64,000 bases of DNA, from sequence record PP047752. The stretch is one strand, 5' to 3'. A program made the position numbers and the translations under genes. The notes under the pieces are model-generated. The model saw only the letters and a list, made by a program, of their open reading frames with translations. It had not been told where the DNA came from and made no database searches. Shown piece by piece: positions 1 to 59,286 of this stretch (position 1 is its first letter; every line of letters starts with the position of its first letter). The stretch comes from Escherichia phage KEP2.

Positions 1-3109
<3,109 letters not shown>

Positions 3110-9512: not shown

Positions 9513-9591
9513 TCACTTGTTGACTGATTGTTAAGATGGTGTTAATATTCTTTATGGGTATTCTCACCATCTTGGCTGATGAGGTGATTAA

Positions 9592-11897: not shown

Positions 11898-12413
11898 TTA
11901 TTTAACCTCAAAAACTGGTTCAAGAACCAATATAAAGTCTACACAGTCATCTTCTTCATCCAGAATACCATCAAAGTTCTTAGGAACGAAGTCGAAGAGG
12001 CTCATCACAAAGCAGTCAGAAGTAACCCTGATAGTTCCTCCCATATTCTCTACAGTCAACACTGTACGGCTTTCTTTTACCTCTCTCAGAAGATTACTCA
12101 CAAAGTCATCTAAGAAGTACTTCATCAGTGACTTAAAACCTTTAGGGTAATCTGTACCAGAGTATGTTTCAATCTGAGGTACAAGCTTAACATTTATACT
12201 AGTCTTTGTTAAGAATGTGTTAGAGAACATACTATCAGGTAACTTACAAACAATCTTTCCAGTACCTTCATGTTCAATCTCAACAAAACCAGCTTCATCG
12301 CCACATGTGACTATTTTAAAAGATGCTTCATTCTCATGCTGTGAAGCCATAAACTTTTTAAGCATTTCCTTAAGGAAATCTGCATGAGCATCTTGTAAGT
12401 AGATATCAATCAT
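11898..12413 (-). CDS. hypothetical protein
   Basis: 171-aa ORF, packed in - strand operon. Confidence 0.3.
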   Translation of the reverse strand: MIDIYLQDAHADFLKEMLKKFMASQHENEASFKIVTCGDEAGFVEIEHEGTGKIVCKLPDSMFSNTFLTKTSINVKLVPQIETYSGTDYPKGFKSLMKYFLDDFVSNLLREVKESRTVLTVENMGGTIRVTSDCFVMSLFDFVPKNFDGILDEEDDCVDFILVLEPVFEVK

Positions 12414-56113: not shown

Positions 56114-56644
56114 ATGAACAAATTTCAAGCTATCAATTACATCCGCTCAAATAGTGTTATGTCAAAGCCTGTTAAAGACACCTATGAATTTCGTTGCAAT
56201 GGTGTACACTTTGCAACCATCACCAAATCAGAAAACGGGGCTTATTACGTTCATCGCCGTAATGTTGCAACCGTTGTAGTCTCTCACTTTATGCAAGCTG
56301 TCGCGGAACTTCTCCCGATGTTTTTAGGGCTTTACTTAGATGAGTGTAAGCACATTCATAACCATGTTAAAAGCCTTTTAAACGGTTATAAAATGGCTTA
56401 TGAGCGTTCTATCAAGTCCTTAAACAAGTTTTACAACGCACCTGAAAACACCGTATCAATGGCATACGCTGTAAAGGGTGAGGCGGTGAGTCTCTTCGAA
56501 GTGGAAGAAATCGAGCTTTATGACCATCGCCCCAATGGTTACGCTAAAACTCTCGGTGAAGGTTTAACGTTCAATATCAAGAACTTAGAAAAAACTTTAA
56601 AAGATATTGAAAAAGATATTGACGAGACAATCAAAAGTCTGTAA
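56114..56644 (+). CDS. early-type protein (array gene 13)
   Basis: 176 aa. Confidence 0.45.
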   Translation: MNKFQAINYIRSNSVMSKPVKDTYEFRCNGVHFATITKSENGAYYVHRRNVATVVVSHFMQAVAELLPMFLGLYLDECKHIHNHVKSLLNGYKMAYERSIKSLNKFYNAPENTVSMAYAVKGEAVSLFEVEEIELYDHRPNGYAKTLGEGLTFNIKNLEKTLKDIEKDIDETIKSL

Positions 56645-56649
56645 ATTGT

Positions 56650-56712
56650 CAATCAACGGGGAGGGAATGACCTTCCCCACTAAATAAAGTCCTTAAACTA
56701 GGAGATTCTAAA
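56650..56712 (+). promoter_or_regulatory. variant cassette (copy l)
   Basis: TTGTCAATCAACGGGGAGGGaatgaCCTTCCCCACTAAATAAAGTCCTTAAACTAGGAGATTCTAAAATG. Confidence 0.45.
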
Positions 56713-56961
56713 ATGGCAACTATCCGCGCAATTGTAAATTCTTATGGCTGCTACACTCTGGACGTTAAATTTGATATAGGTGGGACCGATGAGTGTTTCG
56801 AACTGGTGAAAACAGTCATTAAACAAGTTATCCCAGACTATAACCCTACTGATGACTTCTGGAAAGATGCAGTAAAAGAGGCGTTGAACGATGAATATCA
56901 TTACCATTATTGGGGTGATTTGATTGTCTCCCTGTACTACAATAAACAAGGTTGCAACTAA
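56713..56961 (+). CDS. small early-type protein (array gene 14)
   Basis: 82 aa. Confidence 0.4.
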   Translation: MATIRAIVNSYGCYTLDVKFDIGGTDECFELVKTVIKQVIPDYNPTDDFWKDAVKEALNDEYHYHYWGDLIVSLYYNKQGCN

Positions 56962-56998
56962 TCGGCGCAACGGGGCAAATAGCCCCAGATACCTTTAT

Positions 56999-57021
56999 AG
57001 CCCCTTAAATGGGGCTTTTTT
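56999..57021 (+). terminator. intrinsic terminator ending the small-gene array
   Basis: AGCCCC-ttaaat-GGGGCT followed by TTTTT; preceded by degenerate cassette-like hairpin GGGGCaaatAGCCCCAGATACC. Confidence 0.55.
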
Positions 57022-57374
57022 ACGTCTTATCAAATCCTATACAATCCTTTTCCTTTCCTTTCCAGAGTCTTACTAGACCTTAAAAGCAATAACTCTATAG
57101 CTTACTCTATAACCTTTTATCAAATCAACTTAAATATAAGCCCATAACCCGAAAGGGAAGGGCAACCGTTTAAACGCTCTATAAAGCTCTATAACAGCCT
57201 TATCAACCTAACTTAAGGGATTGCATTAACTCACCCTTAAAAGCCCTTTATAAAGCTTCCTAGAGCCTTAAAAGAATCTTATAAGGGTGTAAGCTTTATT
57301 ATCTCGTTAGTATCTTGTGAACTACTAAAAAGGGGCTTGTTAGTTACTAAAAAGTATGTTATAGGGGCTATAAA

Positions 57375-57516
57375 GTTACGTAAAAGTAGCTTAAAAGTTA
57401 CGTAAAAGTAGCTTAAAAGTTACGTAAAAGTAGCTTAAAAGTTACGTAAAAGTAGCTTAAAAGTTACGTAAAAGTAGCTTAAAAGTTACGTAAAAGTAGC
57501 TTAAAAGTTACGTAAA
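57375..57516. repeat. 22-bp direct tandem repeat GTTACGTAAAAGTAGCTTAAAA x6 plus partial
   Basis: Six perfect units 57375-57506 and a 10-bp partial; each unit has palindromes TTACGTAA and AGCT. Confidence 0.9.
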
Positions 57517-57573
57517 TGCTAGCCCCCTTAACATTTTCTTAACAATCCCTACATAGTTATGCTTTTAAGGCAC

Positions 57574-58110
57574 TTGTTAGCAACTTGTTAAATCTCTGTT
57601 AAAACCATGTAAAAGCCTTGTAAGAGTCTTTGGCATAGCCTTTAAAGCCCCTGAAAAGCCTTATAAAGAGGTGTCTACATAGTTGGGGTGCAATTACTAG
57701 GGAGAGACTAAAAAGAGCTTATAAGGAGTTATAAAGAGCTTTTAAAAGGGCTATTTAAAAGGTCACTAAGAGGGAAAGGGAACGATAAGAAAAGAGATAG
57801 TGACCATGTTAATAGCTTGTTAAAAAGGTTAAACACTTGTTAGGAACTTGTTAATTATCTTAACAAAATAACTCTTTAAAATTAACTTGTTAGCTCTTGT
57901 TAGTCATCTGTTAAGCCTCTGTAAAGACTATGTATCAACTGTTAAGAAACTGTTACCCTCTTGTTAAAACTGTTAAGAATCTGTTAAGACCTTTGAAGAG
58001 ATGTTAAGAAGATGTATCAACTGTTAAGAGATTGTTAATGATATTTTAAAATTCTGCAAAGGGGATGTTACAGGGATGTTAAGGGCTACCAAGCAGATAT
58101 ACATCTTCTA
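57574..58110. repeat. dense cluster of short direct motifs (C/T)TGTTAA(G/A), more than 20 copies
   Basis: e.g. ACTTGTTAGCAACTTGTTAAATCTCTGTTAAAACC; ATGTATCAACTGTTAAGA occurs twice (~57925 and ~58008); non-coding. Confidence 0.7.
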
Positions 58111-58538
58111 CAGATATTTTTGAGTTCCTTCAAAGACCCTAAAAAATGACTTGACAACTCTATTTTATAAAAATTTTAAAATTCTGAATAATTACCTATA
58201 CAGTCTTTTAAAAATACAGGCATAAACAGGCTTATAAGATACCTTGTTAGTACCGTGTTAGACCTTGTGAGATAAGGTCTTTAAAGATATTCCTGTTAAG
58301 TTTGTTAAAACAGTCTATATAGAGGCTTAGTAATACCTAGTGAACACCTATAGAGGGTAACATAGCTGACATAGAGATTAAGAGGTGTATAGGGGCTTCT
58401 AAGAGGGTGTAGAGGAATGGTTAAGGTGATTGTATAGGTTGTTAAGAAGGCTTGTTAGAGGGCTATTTAGAAGGGCTATACAGAGGGACTATTAAGACCA
58501 CTAGATAGATACTAAGATACTATATAGTACTATATAAC

Positions 58539-58556
58539 TATATATATATATATATA
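58539..58556. repeat. (TA)9 dinucleotide repeat within AT-rich TACTATATA-type sequence
   Basis: TATATATATATATATATA; candidate DNA-unwinding element. Confidence 0.7.
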
Positions 58557-58658
58557 GAGAGTAAGCTTAAGAAGGTTGTTAAGAAGGATAGATATTTTAT
58601 TCACATATGATGGTGACCCAGAGGTTGGGACAACCGATGAAATTTTATAAAAAAATTA

Positions 58659-58691
58659 AAAAGCCCCCAATTAAGGAGGCTCTTAAGATAT
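58659..58691 (-). terminator. intrinsic terminator for the - strand block
   Basis: On - strand: AGCCUCC-uuaauu-GGGGGCU followed by UUUUUAAUUUUUUU. Confidence 0.5.
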
Positions 58692-58692
58692 T

Positions 58693-59286
58693 TTAAATCA
58701 GTGTTTCCAGAACTGTCTTCAGTGATGACTTGGTTGTCTGATAAAAATGAGTAAATCCATTGTTGTTATCGAATACCTGCATCATGATATCATCTCCCTT
58801 GATTGGGTACACTCGGATATCATAGTGGAACCCATTAAATACAGCAGAACCATTACAGAATGAACTGAAATCATCCACTGAGATATACTCCTCATGCCCT
58901 GTGATTTTTATACAGATACCCTTACTCGGTCTCTTAGGGTTAATATCTTCCATCACAGACATATTCTGTCCACCAAGAGATACCATAGTGACCACTTTAC
59001 GATTTTTCTGTCTAAAGTACATCTTAACTTTCTGTAAAGTGTCTTCATAGAACGGATAAGACCTTTCTACAAAGATTCCTTCAAGTGGCTCTTTACCATT
59101 TTCAACTTCTCTGTTATGCCGTACTGCAAAGATAATTTGTTGGAACCAGTCAAGATTTTCTTCGGATAGTGCTTCTCGAATATCATTCCAGTCAAGGACT
59201 AGGTAGTTGCCTTCAACTTCTTTTAAGTTATCTTTTTCCATATCTATCACACCATTATCGTAAAACTTGGTAATCTGGTACTGCAA
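58693..59286 (-). CDS. hypothetical protein
   Basis: 197-aa ORF, last gene of - strand block. Confidence 0.35.
   Translation of the reverse strand: MQYQITKFYDNGVIDMEKDNLKEVEGNYLVLDWNDIREALSEENLDWFQQIIFAVRHNREVENGKEPLEGIFVERSYPFYEDTLQKVKMYFRQKNRKVVTMVSLGGQNMSVMEDINPKRPSKGICIKITGHEEYISVDDFSSFCNGSAVFNGFHYDIRVYPIKGDDIMMQVFDNNNGFTHFYQTTKSSLKTVLETLI

What the first reader, a model, noticed from the sequence alone, without database searches (positions are those of the whole stretch)
57574..58110. Clustered TGTTAAG/CTTGTTA motifs (over 20 copies) in non-coding DNA
Short motifs such as CTTGTTA, CTGTTAAGA and ATGTTAAGA recur every 10-25 bp across about 500 bp, and the 18-mer ATGTATCAACTGTTAAGA occurs twice. 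Such density is unlikely by chance even in AT-rich DNA and suggests an array of binding sites for one protein, possibly a host nucleoid protein or a phage initiator or terminase small subunit, or a bent-DNA element.
Basis: seen in the sequence. Interest (0 to 1): 0.5.

Follow-up and report, generated by a model that had tools for sequence, protein, structure and literature searches.

The report
Motif-packed terminal repeat of Felix-O1-like phage
The motif cluster is real and coincides with the roughly 570-bp repeat that sits at both ends of this Felix-O1-like phage's linear DNA; the repeat is built from about 20 evenly phased TGTTA protein-binding elements whose sequence and spacing match the binding code of the host oxygen-response regulator ArcA, a link I found in no paper I could search.

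Summary
TGTTA occurs 20 times on the + strand in 57574-58110, against 1.3±1.1 in shuffles and at most 4 in any other 537-bp stretch of the window.

The window is a Felixounavirus genome. The cluster fills the direct terminal repeat (DTR), window 57522-58090. I mapped this from four related records that carry the same 579-591-bp sequence at both ends, and from published PhageTerm results of 581 and 613 bp.

The elements sit in blocks of 2-5 at 11-bp spacing, and the blocks are offset so that the whole array stays in phase at 10.4 bp. The pentamer core is 98% conserved, against 90% for the rest of the repeat.

The same motif, spacing and polarity fill the 444-bp DTR of Erwinia phages (Kolesnikvirus), which cannot otherwise be aligned to this one. 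Both physical ends carry a TGTTA-N6-TGTTAA box 6-9 bp from the terminus.

Core and spacing equal the ArcA-P code. A matrix built from 115 ChIP-defined ArcA boxes finds 12 boxes of at least 12 bits, and the best scores 22.7 bits, above every training site. The spacers, however, are not ArcA-like.

Best reading: a binding array that organises the genome ends for cutting, duplication and possibly protection. The binder is unresolved between host ArcA-P and a phage protein. The TGTTA array is not predicted to be intrinsically bent.

The parts
56999..57016 (+). Terminator-like hairpin that closes the + strand gene block and forms the left edge of the ORF-free gap.
   Evidence: Consensus scan; the last + strand ORF ends at 56961.
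57372..57516 (+). Perfect 22-bp x 6.6 tandem array (AAAGTTACGTAAAAGTAGCTTA, two 11-bp half-units). It ends 5 bp before the left boundary of the terminal repeat. It is predicted to be strongly curved and is an expansion private to this phage.
   Evidence: Tandem Repeats Finder gives 100% matches. Relatives have 0-2 copies. Predicted curvature is 16.6 degrees per turn across the array, above the window's 95th percentile.
57522..58090 (+). Direct terminal repeat (DTR), 569 bp. In the virion it is present once at each end of the DNA; in this assembly it appears as a single internal copy.
   Evidence: In phages D4, ZX4221, CRP22 and GE_vB_7A the first 579-591 bp equal the last 579-591 bp of the record (99.5-100% identity), and they map to GCCCCCTTAACA...GTTAAGGGCTACC in the window. 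Other records start or stop at these positions. PhageTerm reports DTRs of 581 bp (PMC8303462) and 613 bp (PMC6454146).
57528..57545 (-). Left-end box TTGTTAAGAAAATGTTAA, two TGTTA elements pointing toward the left terminus, 6 bp from the physical end.
   Evidence: It scores 22.7 bits on the ArcA-box matrix, above all 115 training sites, whose maximum is 21.5. A box of 21.9-24.7 bits sits at position 7 or 18 of the DTR in each of the 18 Felixounavirus and Mooglevirus relatives; the best minus-strand box of the Kolesnikvirus Ep030 (20.7 bits) lies at position 111. The columns are invariant in the alignment.
57575..57623 (+). Cluster A: five elements in exact 11-bp register (TGTTA at 57575, 57586 and 57597; TGTAA at 57608 and 57619).
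   Evidence: ArcA-matrix boxes of 15.8, 17.9 and 13.3 bits.
57630..57800 (.). Central part of the DTR, with no TGTTA. It holds CTTTAAAG/CTTATAAAG-type words, the left arm of a 30-nt inverted repeat (57739-57768; the right arm, 57798-57827, runs into cluster B) and a predicted curvature peak at 57710.
   Evidence: (repeat I3).
57807..58081 (+). Cluster B: 17 TGTTA elements, all on the + strand, in blocks of 2-3 at 11 bp. The blocks are offset by 9, 10, 20, 31, 33 or 39 bp. It includes the duplicated 18-mer at 57930 and 58012.
   Evidence: Eleven of the fourteen plus-strand boxes of at least 10 bits lie here.
58065..58082 (+). Right-end box ATGTTACAGGGATGTTAA, pointing toward the right terminus and ending 8 bp from it. 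Together with GGGC it mirrors the left end as an imperfect terminal inverted repeat.
   Evidence: 13.8 bits. Inverted repeat I14, 57525-57550 against 58060-58085, is 73% complementary. End-to-end comparison.
58091..58105 (+). Junction block AAGCAGATATACATC, immediately outside the right cut site. It is the only stretch that also aligns with Erwinia phages.
   Evidence: Invariant in 18 aligned relatives. Present as AAGCAGATATACA next to the DTR end in Ep030 and M7.
58140..58195 (.). Predicted curvature peak (24.8 degrees per turn, fourth highest in the window) and an AT-rich near-palindrome, just inside the left unique end.
   Evidence: repeat I20.
58245..58581 (+). Seven further + strand TGTTA elements outside the DTR: pairs at 58245/58256, 58294/58303 and 58440/58453, and a single copy at 58577.
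   Evidence: The same seven or so copies recur in relatives.
58659..58684 (-). Terminator-like hairpin that closes the - strand gene block and forms the right edge of the gap.
   Evidence: the - strand ORF ends at 58693.

Best explanation
The cluster is the short direct terminal repeat (DTR, window 57522-58090) of a Felix-O1-like phage. The repeat is built as a cis-acting array of protein-binding sites.

Shown:
- The array holds about 20 TGTTA(A/G) elements, or 26 if tolerated variants are counted.
- They sit head-to-tail in blocks of 2-5 at 11-bp spacing.
- The blocks are offset so that all elements face one side of the helix.
- The two or three leftmost elements are inverted, so each physical end of the DNA reads 5'-TGTTA-N6-TGTTAA-GGG-3' a few bases from the terminus.

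Inferred mechanism:
1. A winged-helix protein of the OmpR/PhoB kind binds cooperatively along the repeat in replicated concatemers and folds it into a compact particle.
2. This presents the two mirror-image boundary boxes to the terminase nuclease.
3. The nuclease nicks opposite strands at the two boundaries. Strand-displacement synthesis then duplicates the repeat, as in T7, so that each packaged genome carries a full copy.
4. After ejection into a new host, the same boxes at both ends could cap or pair the ends.

The binder is not identified. Host ArcA-P is the leading single candidate at about 35%, because core and spacing equal its code. A phage-encoded recognition protein is about as likely.
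For: Identity as the DTR:
- Four related records have identical heads and tails that map to 57522-58090.
- Further records begin or end at the same positions.
- Published PhageTerm DTRs are 581 bp and 613 bp.
- The Erwinia phage M7 record has a 444-bp DTR at the homologous place.

Binding-site array:
- The enrichment is about 15-fold.
- Core columns are 98.4% conserved and 86% invariant, against 89.8% and 50% for the rest of the DTR; none of 568 shifts reaches this.
- 19-23 copies are kept in each of the 17 related loci examined.
- Phase coherence is R=0.77 at 10.4 bp in the window and 0.70-0.82 in relatives, although their DTRs range from 570 to 658 bp and differ in roughly 11-bp steps.
- The same motif, spacing and polarity fill the Kolesnikvirus DTR, which is otherwise unalignable.

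Mirror-image ends: (repeat I14).

ArcA code:
- The published element is ATGTTAAAAA with core TGTTA, 11-bp (or 22-bp) centre-to-centre spacing and 2-5 elements per site; 12-bp spacing is not bound.
- A matrix built from 115 ChIP-seq boxes finds 12 boxes of at least 12 bits in the DTR, against 0.28 in shuffles. Density is 14-36 per kb in every relative's DTR against 0-0.6 per kb elsewhere.
- A 12-bp gap never occurs among 353 gaps.

The gap is closed off by terminators on both sides and shows no promoter excess and no Rfam match.
Against: - No reads or virion DNA of this particular phage were available, so its ends are placed by homology only.
- No binding experiment exists, and the wrapping and nicking steps are inference by analogy with T7 and lambda.
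- No terminase small subunit is annotated in the genus. TerL lies about 16 kb from the repeat, so the usual gene-next-to-site arrangement is missing.
- Against ArcA specifically: positions outside the cores are no better than random on the ArcA matrix (mean -1.4 against -2.6, p=0.13), and C precedes the core in 7 of 20 sites, which ArcA disfavours.
- From my own knowledge, these phages plate well aerobically, when ArcA-P is scarce.
- The test of long-range phasing against a null that jitters only the long gaps is modest (131 of 5000).
Confidence: 0.6

Rival explanations
1. A host ArcA-P array whose purpose is regulatory rather than structural. Multi-copy phage DNA would titrate ArcA-P and so lift the anaerobic repression of respiratory and TCA genes. 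Alternatively, ArcA-P occupancy would let the phage sense the redox state of the cell and gate end processing.
For: The core and the 11-bp spacing equal the ArcA code, and the box scores lie in or above the range of chromosomal sites. The motif is kept in phages of E. coli, Salmonella, Citrobacter and Erwinia, hosts which, from my own knowledge, share ArcA. The genome carries anaerobic nucleotide reductase and NAD-salvage genes, which suggests life in low-oxygen habitats. tblastn finds no ArcA-like protein in the phage.
Against: A sponge would not need to coincide base-for-base with the terminal repeat, nor to have mirror-image boxes at the two cut sites. The spacers are not ArcA-optimised. 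No paper in the searchable library links ArcA to these phages.
Confidence: 0.12
2. Recognition sites only for a phage-encoded protein, either a terminase small-subunit analogue or another end-binding protein. The likeness to ArcA sites would then be coincidental.
For: The array is bounded by the cut sites. Its spacers carry a phage-specific flavour, (C/T)TGTTAAGA, that the ArcA matrix does not reward. All five core bases are equally conserved, whereas the first T carries much less information in the ArcA matrix (0.67 bits against 1.6 for G and the next T). Outside the window, the genome has a 123-aa DUF5681 protein at the head of the late block, which is an untested lead.
Against: No candidate has been identified. 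The genes flanking the repeat have no known domains. The conserved 176-aa neighbour models as a small beta-sheet plus a long helical hairpin, not as a DNA-binding fold, and has no fold match with E at or below 0.001. An exact match of both pentamer and spacing to one of roughly 14 host regulators of this class is unlikely by chance, on my own rough estimate of a few per cent.
Confidence: 0.3
3. An iteron-type replication origin located in the terminal repeat.
For: The repeats are direct, helically phased and in one orientation, and AT-rich stretches lie nearby at 58040-58060 and 58160-58195.
Against: The elements are 5-bp cores at 11 bp, not 17-22-bp iterons. There is no cluster of DnaA boxes; one relaxed box lies at 58597. 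No initiator-like gene lies next to the array. The array ends exactly at the cut sites. The GC-skew turn here coincides with the change in gene orientation between the two convergent blocks.
Confidence: 0.07
4. A by-product of slippage and unequal recombination in non-coding terminal DNA, or a purely structural bent-DNA element, with no sequence-specific binder.
For: The lengths of the repeat differ between relatives in roughly 11-bp steps, and a perfect 22-bp array has recently expanded next to it, so slippage is active here.
Against: The core is conserved far above the spacers. The same pentamer is kept across genera. The TGTTA-rich half is not predicted to be curved.
Confidence: 0.04

Closest known systems
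Phage T7 terminal repetition with its flanking short-repeat arrays (SRL/SRR; Dunn and Studier 1983, cited from my own knowledge; sequence checked here)
   Same: Both are short, non-permuted direct terminal repeats of a virulent coliphage, with many copies of one short word, all in one orientation, inside and next to the repeat. T7 has 11 CTAAAG (14 counting ATAAAG) in its first 360 bp, none on the other strand. From my own knowledge, the role of these words in T7 is still not settled.
   Different: There is no sequence or gene homology. The T7 words are spaced in multiples of 13 bp and lie mostly outside the 160-bp repeat. Here the words are 11-bp spaced, helically phased, and lie mainly inside a 569-bp repeat, with a few further copies beyond its right boundary. 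T7 uses its own RNA polymerase pause site at the junction; no phage RNA polymerase is annotated in the relative examined here.
ArcA-P multi-repeat operator sites of E. coli (Park et al. 2013, PMC3798270; Park and Kiley 2014, PMC4173790)
   Same: The core is TGTTA, the elements are head-to-tail direct repeats at 11-bp (or 22-bp) centre-to-centre spacing, and variants such as TGTAA are tolerated. Blocks hold 2-5 elements. Matrix scores run from 12 to 22.7 bits, against a mean of 15.7 for chromosomal sites.
   Different: Chromosomal sites have at most 5 elements and sit over promoters. Here about 8 such blocks are strung together over 569 bp, in a stretch with no excess of promoter-like sites, at the ends of the genome. 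The spacers are not A/T-rich as in ArcA sites. Binding has not been tested.
Terminase recognition regions that use repeated sites and a host architectural protein: lambda cosB (R sites plus an IHF site), P1 pac (hexamer arrays plus IHF/HU) and SPP1 pacL/pacR (all from my own knowledge)
   Same: Repeated, phased short sites lie next to the cleavage position. These systems set a precedent for a host DNA-bending protein helping to assemble the packaging complex.
   Different: Those phages make cohesive ends or package by the headful, rather than making exact terminal repeats. Their sites number 3-7, not 20. No IHF consensus is present here.
ArcA as an accessory protein at the psi site for Xer recombination (pSC101), and at F-like plasmid tra promoters (own knowledge; PMC7303359 appeared in search and was not read)
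   Same: These show that mobile elements already borrow ArcA as an architectural DNA-binding factor.
   Different: They have one or a few sites, on plasmids, and are not at genome termini.
Iteron origins of plasmids and phages
   Same: Direct repeats in helical phase.
   Different: The unit size, the missing initiator gene and the missing DnaA boxes all differ.

Membership tests
Short direct terminal repeat of a linear, non-permuted phage genome | The same sequence is present at both ends of the virion DNA. | tested here: met
   Met by homology. Four Felixounavirus records have identical 579-591-bp heads and tails that map to window 57522-58090. The Erwinia phage M7 record has a 444-bp repeat at the homologous place. 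This was not tested on this phage's own DNA.
Short direct terminal repeat of a linear, non-permuted phage genome | The termini are fixed and sequence-specific. | tested here: met
   Records from independent laboratories start or stop at the same bases. The boundary sequences are invariant in 18 relatives. PhageTerm reports DTR packaging (PMC8303462, PMC6454146, PMC11737134).
ArcA-P binding site (multi-repeat ArcA box) | TGTTA core elements arranged as direct repeats. | tested here: met
   20 copies on one strand, with the core 98% conserved.
ArcA-P binding site (multi-repeat ArcA box) | 11-bp (or 22-bp) centre-to-centre spacing; 12 bp is not tolerated. | tested here: met
   Of 353 gaps in 18 loci, 183 are 11 bp and none is 12 bp. 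The rule is taken from PMC3798270.
ArcA-P binding site (multi-repeat ArcA box) | A score within the range of ChIP-defined boxes on a matrix built from those boxes. | tested here: met
   Twelve boxes score at least 12 bits and six at least 15 bits; the best scores 22.7 bits, against a training mean of 15.7 and maximum of 21.5.
ArcA-P binding site (multi-repeat ArcA box) | A/T-rich spacer and flank preferences of the ArcA box. | tested here: not met
   The flank-only score averages -1.4, against -2.6 for random 18-mers (p=0.13). C precedes the core in 7 of 20 sites.
ArcA-P binding site (multi-repeat ArcA box) | Protection or occupancy by phosphorylated ArcA. | not testable with these tools
   This needs footprinting, gel shift or ChIP.
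Terminase small-subunit recognition region (pac or cosB type) | Repeated sites at or next to the cleavage position. | tested here: met
   The boxes lie 6-9 bp from both cut sites and the array spans the distance between them.
Terminase small-subunit recognition region (pac or cosB type) | A recognisable small-subunit gene, usually next to the large-subunit gene or next to the site. | tested here: not met
   None is annotated. The 66-aa ORF upstream of TerL has no known domain, and the genes flanking the repeat are of unknown function.
Iteron-type replication origin | Iterons together with an AT-rich unwinding element, DnaA boxes and an adjacent initiator gene. | tested here: not met
   There is one relaxed DnaA box in the gap, which is no enrichment, and no initiator-like gene.
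Intrinsically bent DNA (phased A-tracts) | High predicted curvature. | tested here: not met
   The TGTTA-rich half gives 6.1 degrees per turn against a window mean of 7.5. Only the 22-bp array (16.6) and the spots at 57710 and 58140 are high. The implementation is my own and the wedge parameters were recalled from memory.
T7-type short-repeat arrays at genome ends | Homology to the T7 repeats or to the T7 packaging genes. | tested here: not met
   The word, the spacing and the placement all differ. The likeness is one of architecture only.

The most novel reading that the evidence does not exclude
Felix-O1-like phages (Ounavirinae) recruit the host redox response regulator ArcA-P in bulk, with 20 or more protomers on each terminal repeat and the strongest site 6 bp from the DNA end. 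The host factor would help define, duplicate, pair or shield the genome ends. Phage maturation or early survival would then be coupled to the oxygen and redox state of the gut bacterium.
Probability: 0.3. Interest if true: 0.8.

Novelty: new variant of a known kind. Interest (0 to 1): 0.6.

Why it matters
How phages with short exact terminal repeats recognise and duplicate their ends is understood in outline only for T7 and T3. Even there, the purpose of the repeated words at the ends has stayed unclear for decades.

This locus gives a much more regular case: about 20 phased elements, mirror-image boxes at both cut sites, and a motif kept across genera. It also offers a named, purchasable candidate binder, so the question becomes directly testable with gel shifts, arcA deletion hosts and recoded repeats.

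If ArcA is the binder, this would be, as far as I know, a new kind of dependence of a virulent phage on a host two-component regulator. That would bear on how Salmonella and E. coli biocontrol and typing phages of this group behave in anaerobic habitats.

The result also has a practical use for annotation. The boundary strings GCCCCCTTAACA and GTTAAGGGCTACC|AAGCAGATATACA locate the true ends in the many database records of this genus that are opened arbitrarily.

Tried and rejected
- Rfam scan of 56600-59000 at a permissive threshold: two weak chance-level hits only.
- Sigma-70 promoter scan: 8 sites against 8.0 expected, so no excess.
- IHF consensus WATCAANNNNTTR: no site in the gap. The duplicated 18-mer misses the consensus by one base.
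- DnaA boxes: one relaxed match at 58597 and no enrichment.
- Intrinsic curvature as the explanation for the TGTTA array: not supported by my wedge model.
- Genes flanking the repeat as candidate binders: 10 ORFs have no Pfam domain and fall only in PHROG families of unknown function.
- The syntenic 176-aa neighbour, which is 30% identical in Erwinia phages: I modelled it (pLDDT 76) and compared it with the PDB. It has no match with E at or below 0.001 and no DNA-binding fold.
- Reaching more distant relatives through that protein: an alignment-based scan of viral contigs returned only Felixounavirus, Mooglevirus and Kolesnikvirus loci.
- Literature: no paper links ArcA to Felix O1 or to phage terminal repeats. 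The Felix O1 genome paper infers short terminal repeats but does not describe this array. The paper describing Erwinia phage M7 is not held. DUF5681 has no functional description in the library.
Full report
**1.

The stretch 57574-58110 contains TGTTA 20 times on the + strand and once on the - strand. Most copies read (C/T)TGTTA(A/G). The 18-mer ATGTATCAACTGTTAAGA occurs at 57930 and 58012.

Dinucleotide-preserving shuffles of the interval give 1.30±1.11 copies, with a maximum of 6 in 2000 shuffles. No other 537-bp stretch of the 64-kb window has more than 4 copies on the + strand or 5 on the - strand. The paired form TGTTA-N6-TGTTA occurs 14 times against 0.38 expected, and 12 of the 14 lie in this gap. 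An unbiased hexamer scan ranks TGTTAA, CTTGTT, GTTAAG and TTGTTA at 24-40 times expectation, almost all on one strand.

The cluster lies in a 1.7-kb ORF-free gap (56962-58692) between two convergent gene blocks, each closed by a terminator-like hairpin.

**2. What the region is**

The window belongs to a Felixounavirus, a Felix-O1-like myophage. 256 phage records match 56900-58800 at 80-94% identity.

Several records that were deposited with their physical ends begin about 50 bp before my query and match it at both ends of the record. I fetched heads and tails of four of them:

| Phage | Head equals tail over | Identity |
|---|---|---|
| vB_EcoM_D4 | 581 bp | 100% |
| ZX4221 | 591 bp | 100% |
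| CRP22 | 579 bp | 100% |
| GE_vB_7A | 581 bp | 99.5% |

All four map to the same window positions, from GCCCCCTTAACA... at 57522 to ...GTTAAGGGCTACC at 58090. Other records stop or start at exactly these bases.

Published PhageTerm analyses report direct terminal repeats of 581 bp (Pr103Blw, PMC8303462) and 613 bp (Ro111lw, PMC6454146) for phages of this genus. The Felix O1 genome paper had already inferred short terminal repeats.

The finding is therefore the genome's direct terminal repeat (DTR), 57522-58090, 569 bp. In this assembly it is present as the single copy that would lie between unit genomes in a concatemer. For this particular phage the placement rests on homology, not on its own reads.

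**3. Anatomy of the repeat**

- **Blocks.** Allowing the variants TGTAA and NGTTA, the + strand carries 26 elements in blocks at exactly 11 bp. There are five at 57575-57619, then blocks of two or three between 57807 and 58081. The blocks are separated by 9, 10, 20, 33 or 39 bp.
- **Phasing.** Because of these offsets, the positions are coherent not at 11 bp (R=0.26) but at 10.4 bp (R=0.77), the helical repeat of DNA. All elements therefore face one side of the helix across 500 bp, including across a 190-bp central segment that has none. None of 5000 uniform placements reaches this value. A stricter null that jitters only the long gaps reaches it in 131 of 5000 trials.
- **Phasing in relatives.** The same coherence (R 0.70-0.82 at 10.2-10.5 bp) holds in 17 related loci whose repeats measure 570-658 bp. 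These lengths differ in steps of about 11 bp.
- **Mirror-image ends.** The two or three leftmost elements are inverted (57528-57545, - strand). Each physical end therefore reads 5'-TGTTA-N6-TGTTAA-GGG toward the terminus, 6 bp from the left end and 8 bp from the right. The ends form an imperfect terminal inverted repeat (repeat I14).
- **Junction.** Immediately outside the right cut lies the invariant block AAGCAGATATACATC.

**4. Evidence that the elements are functional**

In an alignment of 18 distinct relatives, the TGTTA/TAACA columns are 98.4% conserved and 86% invariant. The other 454 columns of the repeat are 89.8% conserved and 50% invariant. None of 568 circular shifts of the mask reaches the observed value, and conservation drops sharply one base on either side of the pentamer. 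Each relative keeps 19-23 + strand copies.

The strongest evidence comes from another genus. Erwinia phages of Kolesnikvirus align with the window only over about 120 bp at the right boundary. Even so, the M7 record carries a 444-bp repeat at both ends, which maps to Ep030 locus positions 2663-3106. That stretch holds 15 TGTTA on the + strand with 11-, 20- and 22-bp gaps, plus 7 inverted copies in its left part. Synteny is kept as well: the 176-aa gene two genes upstream of the repeat is 30% identical between the genera.

**5. What the code resembles**

TGTTA direct repeats at 11-bp centre-to-centre spacing are the published recognition code of phosphorylated ArcA, an OmpR/PhoB-family response regulator. 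The published properties are:

- The element is ATGTTAAAAA with core TGTTA.
- Sites hold two to five elements at 11 or 22 bp.
- An element at 12 bp is not bound.
- TGTAA is tolerated.

These come from PMC3798270 and PMC4173790.

I built an 18-bp information matrix from the 115 ChIP-seq ArcA boxes readable in Table S3 of that paper. The training mean is 15.7 bits and the maximum 21.5 bits.

- The DTR holds 12 boxes of at least 12 bits and 6 of at least 15 bits, against 0.28 boxes of at least 12 bits in shuffles.
- The left-end box TTGTTAAGAAAATGTTAA scores 22.7 bits, above every training site.
- Every relative, Kolesnikvirus included, has 14-36 such boxes per kb of repeat, against 0-0.6 per kb elsewhere. 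In all 18 Felixounavirus and Mooglevirus relatives a box of 21.9-24.7 bits sits at position 7 or 18 from the left end. In Ep030 the best minus-strand box, at 20.7 bits, lies deeper in the repeat, at position 111. In one locus the left-end box is ATGTTAAAAAAATGTTAA.
- Among 353 neighbour gaps in 18 loci, 12 bp never occurs.

The likeness has limits. The positions outside the two cores score no better than random 18-mers (-1.4 against -2.6, p=0.13). C precedes the core in 7 of 20 sites, which ArcA disfavours. The resemblance is therefore core plus spacing plus a trailing A, not the whole box.

I found no paper that connects ArcA with Felix O1 or with phage terminal repeats, and tblastn finds no ArcA-like protein encoded by the phage.

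**6. Other readings tested**

- **Intrinsic bending.** With my own wedge-model implementation (parameters recalled from memory, checked on phased A-tracts), the TGTTA-rich half is below the window average: 6.1 against 7.5 degrees per turn. The 22-bp tandem array that abuts the left boundary is uniformly high at 16.6. There are peaks at 57710 and, just beyond the right boundary, at 58140 (24.8, fourth highest in the window). Curved DNA may therefore flank the cut sites, but the array itself is not a bent-DNA element.
- **Origin of replication.** There is no cluster of DnaA boxes and no initiator-like gene. The GC-skew turn coincides with the change in gene orientation.
- **RNA gene or promoter array.** There is no Rfam match and no promoter excess.
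- **IHF.** No consensus site is present.
- **Phage-encoded binder next to the site.** All ten flanking ORFs lack known domains. The conserved 176-aa neighbour models (pLDDT 76) as a small sheet plus a long helical hairpin, with no informative PDB match.
- **Terminase genes.** TerL lies about 16 kb away and no small subunit is annotated. A 123-aa DUF5681 protein outside this window is an untested lead.

**7. Most likely mechanism**

Shown: the identity of the region as the DTR (by homology); the phased, polar, conserved array; and the mirror-image boxes at both cut sites.

Inferred:

1. A winged-helix protein that reads the ArcA code binds head-to-tail in dimers on the 11-bp blocks.
2. Because all blocks share one helical face, the bound repeat can fold into a compact particle. 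This brings the two boundaries, 569 bp apart, together for the terminase nuclease.
3. Nicks on opposite strands at the two mirror-image boundary sites, followed by strand-displacement synthesis, would give both neighbouring genomes a full repeat, as proposed for T7.
4. After ejection, boxes a few bases from each end could cap or pair the ends.

I put the DTR identity at about 0.95, a sequence-specific binding array at about 0.85, a role in end processing at about 0.6, and host ArcA-P as the binder at about 0.35. A phage protein is about equally likely as the binder.

**8. Comparison with what is known**

The nearest known architecture is the T7 terminal repetition with its flanking short-repeat arrays. 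I checked the T7 left end: it has 11 CTAAAG (14 counting ATAAAG), all on one strand, in the first 360 bp, spaced in multiples of 13 bp. The kind of feature is the same; the word, spacing, placement and genes are different.

Lambda cosB with IHF, P1 pac and SPP1 pac are precedents for repeated sites and host bending proteins in packaging. ArcA at the Xer psi site is a precedent for ArcA as an architectural factor. These four points come from my own knowledge.

As ArcA sites, the elements meet the tests of core, spacing and score, fail the spacer test, and binding is untested. I therefore do not file them as ArcA sites, only as sites that read like them.

**9. Verdict**

That this genus has a short DTR is already known. 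The internal construction of the repeat, its conservation across genera and the match to the ArcA code are, as far as I could search, undescribed.

I rate it a new variant of a known kind, with interest 0.6.

Noticed in passing
window 57372-57516: A perfect 22-bp x 6.6 tandem array directly abuts the left boundary of the terminal repeat. Relatives carry only 0-2 copies of the unit, so this is a recent private expansion. It is predicted to be uniformly curved, and each unit scores 12.1 bits as a weak ArcA-type box (AAGTAGCTTAAAAGTTAC).
   Followed up: partly
window 58091-58105; L032 3105-3120: The block AAGCAGATATACA, just outside the right cut site, is the only part of the gap that still aligns between Felixounavirus and the Erwinia phages. 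It is a candidate for the cleavage or recognition signal itself.
   Followed up: partly
window 58062-58075; T7 record positions 158-171 (L043): The right boundary reads GGGATGTTACAGGG. T7 has CCCTATCTGTTACAGTC straddling the end of its own 160-bp repeat, at what is, from my own knowledge, the RNA-polymerase pause site of the concatemer junction. The shared TGTTACAG may be coincidence.
   Followed up: no
DTRs of 18 loci (L011-L033) and the window: The lengths of the terminal repeat (569, 570, 579-582, 591-592, 601-603, 613-614, 633, 658 bp) fall within 1-2 bp of 569+11k. Units therefore appear to be gained and lost one helical turn at a time.
   Followed up: partly
window 9517-9545 and 12206-12223: These are the only TGTTA-N6-TGTTA pairs outside the gap. 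One is a three-element run, TTGTTGACTGATTGTTAAGATGGTGTTAA (16.7 and 15.1 bits on the ArcA matrix). I did not check what they overlap.
   Followed up: no
window 58505-58556: A (TA)n and ATATATACT microsatellite lies in the unique DNA to the right of the repeat.
   Followed up: no
window 57017-57371: The DNA to the left of the repeat is itself built from roughly 11-bp words of a second family (CCTTAAAAGC, CTCTATAAAGC, CTTATAAGG). Including the adjoining 22-bp array (57017-57521), TAAAAG occurs 15 times on the + strand against 0.41 expected. The Erwinia phage has a different second family (CTTCTAA) at the same place.
   Followed up: partly
window 56114-56644 (+): This 176-aa protein keeps its position two genes before the terminal repeat in both genera (30% identity). 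The database assigns it PF26821. It models as a small N-terminal beta-sheet plus a long helical hairpin, with residues 111-145 disordered, and has no fold match.
   Followed up: yes
outside the window: MZ501086 79867-80238 (L034 42668-43039): A 123-aa protein with Pfam DUF5681 lies at the head of the late tRNA-terminase block. It may be the missing small-terminase-like recognition protein.
   Followed up: no
window 57739-57768 / 57798-57827: A 30-nt inverted repeat (77% complementary, 29-nt loop) lies at the transition from the element-free centre of the repeat to cluster B.
   Followed up: no
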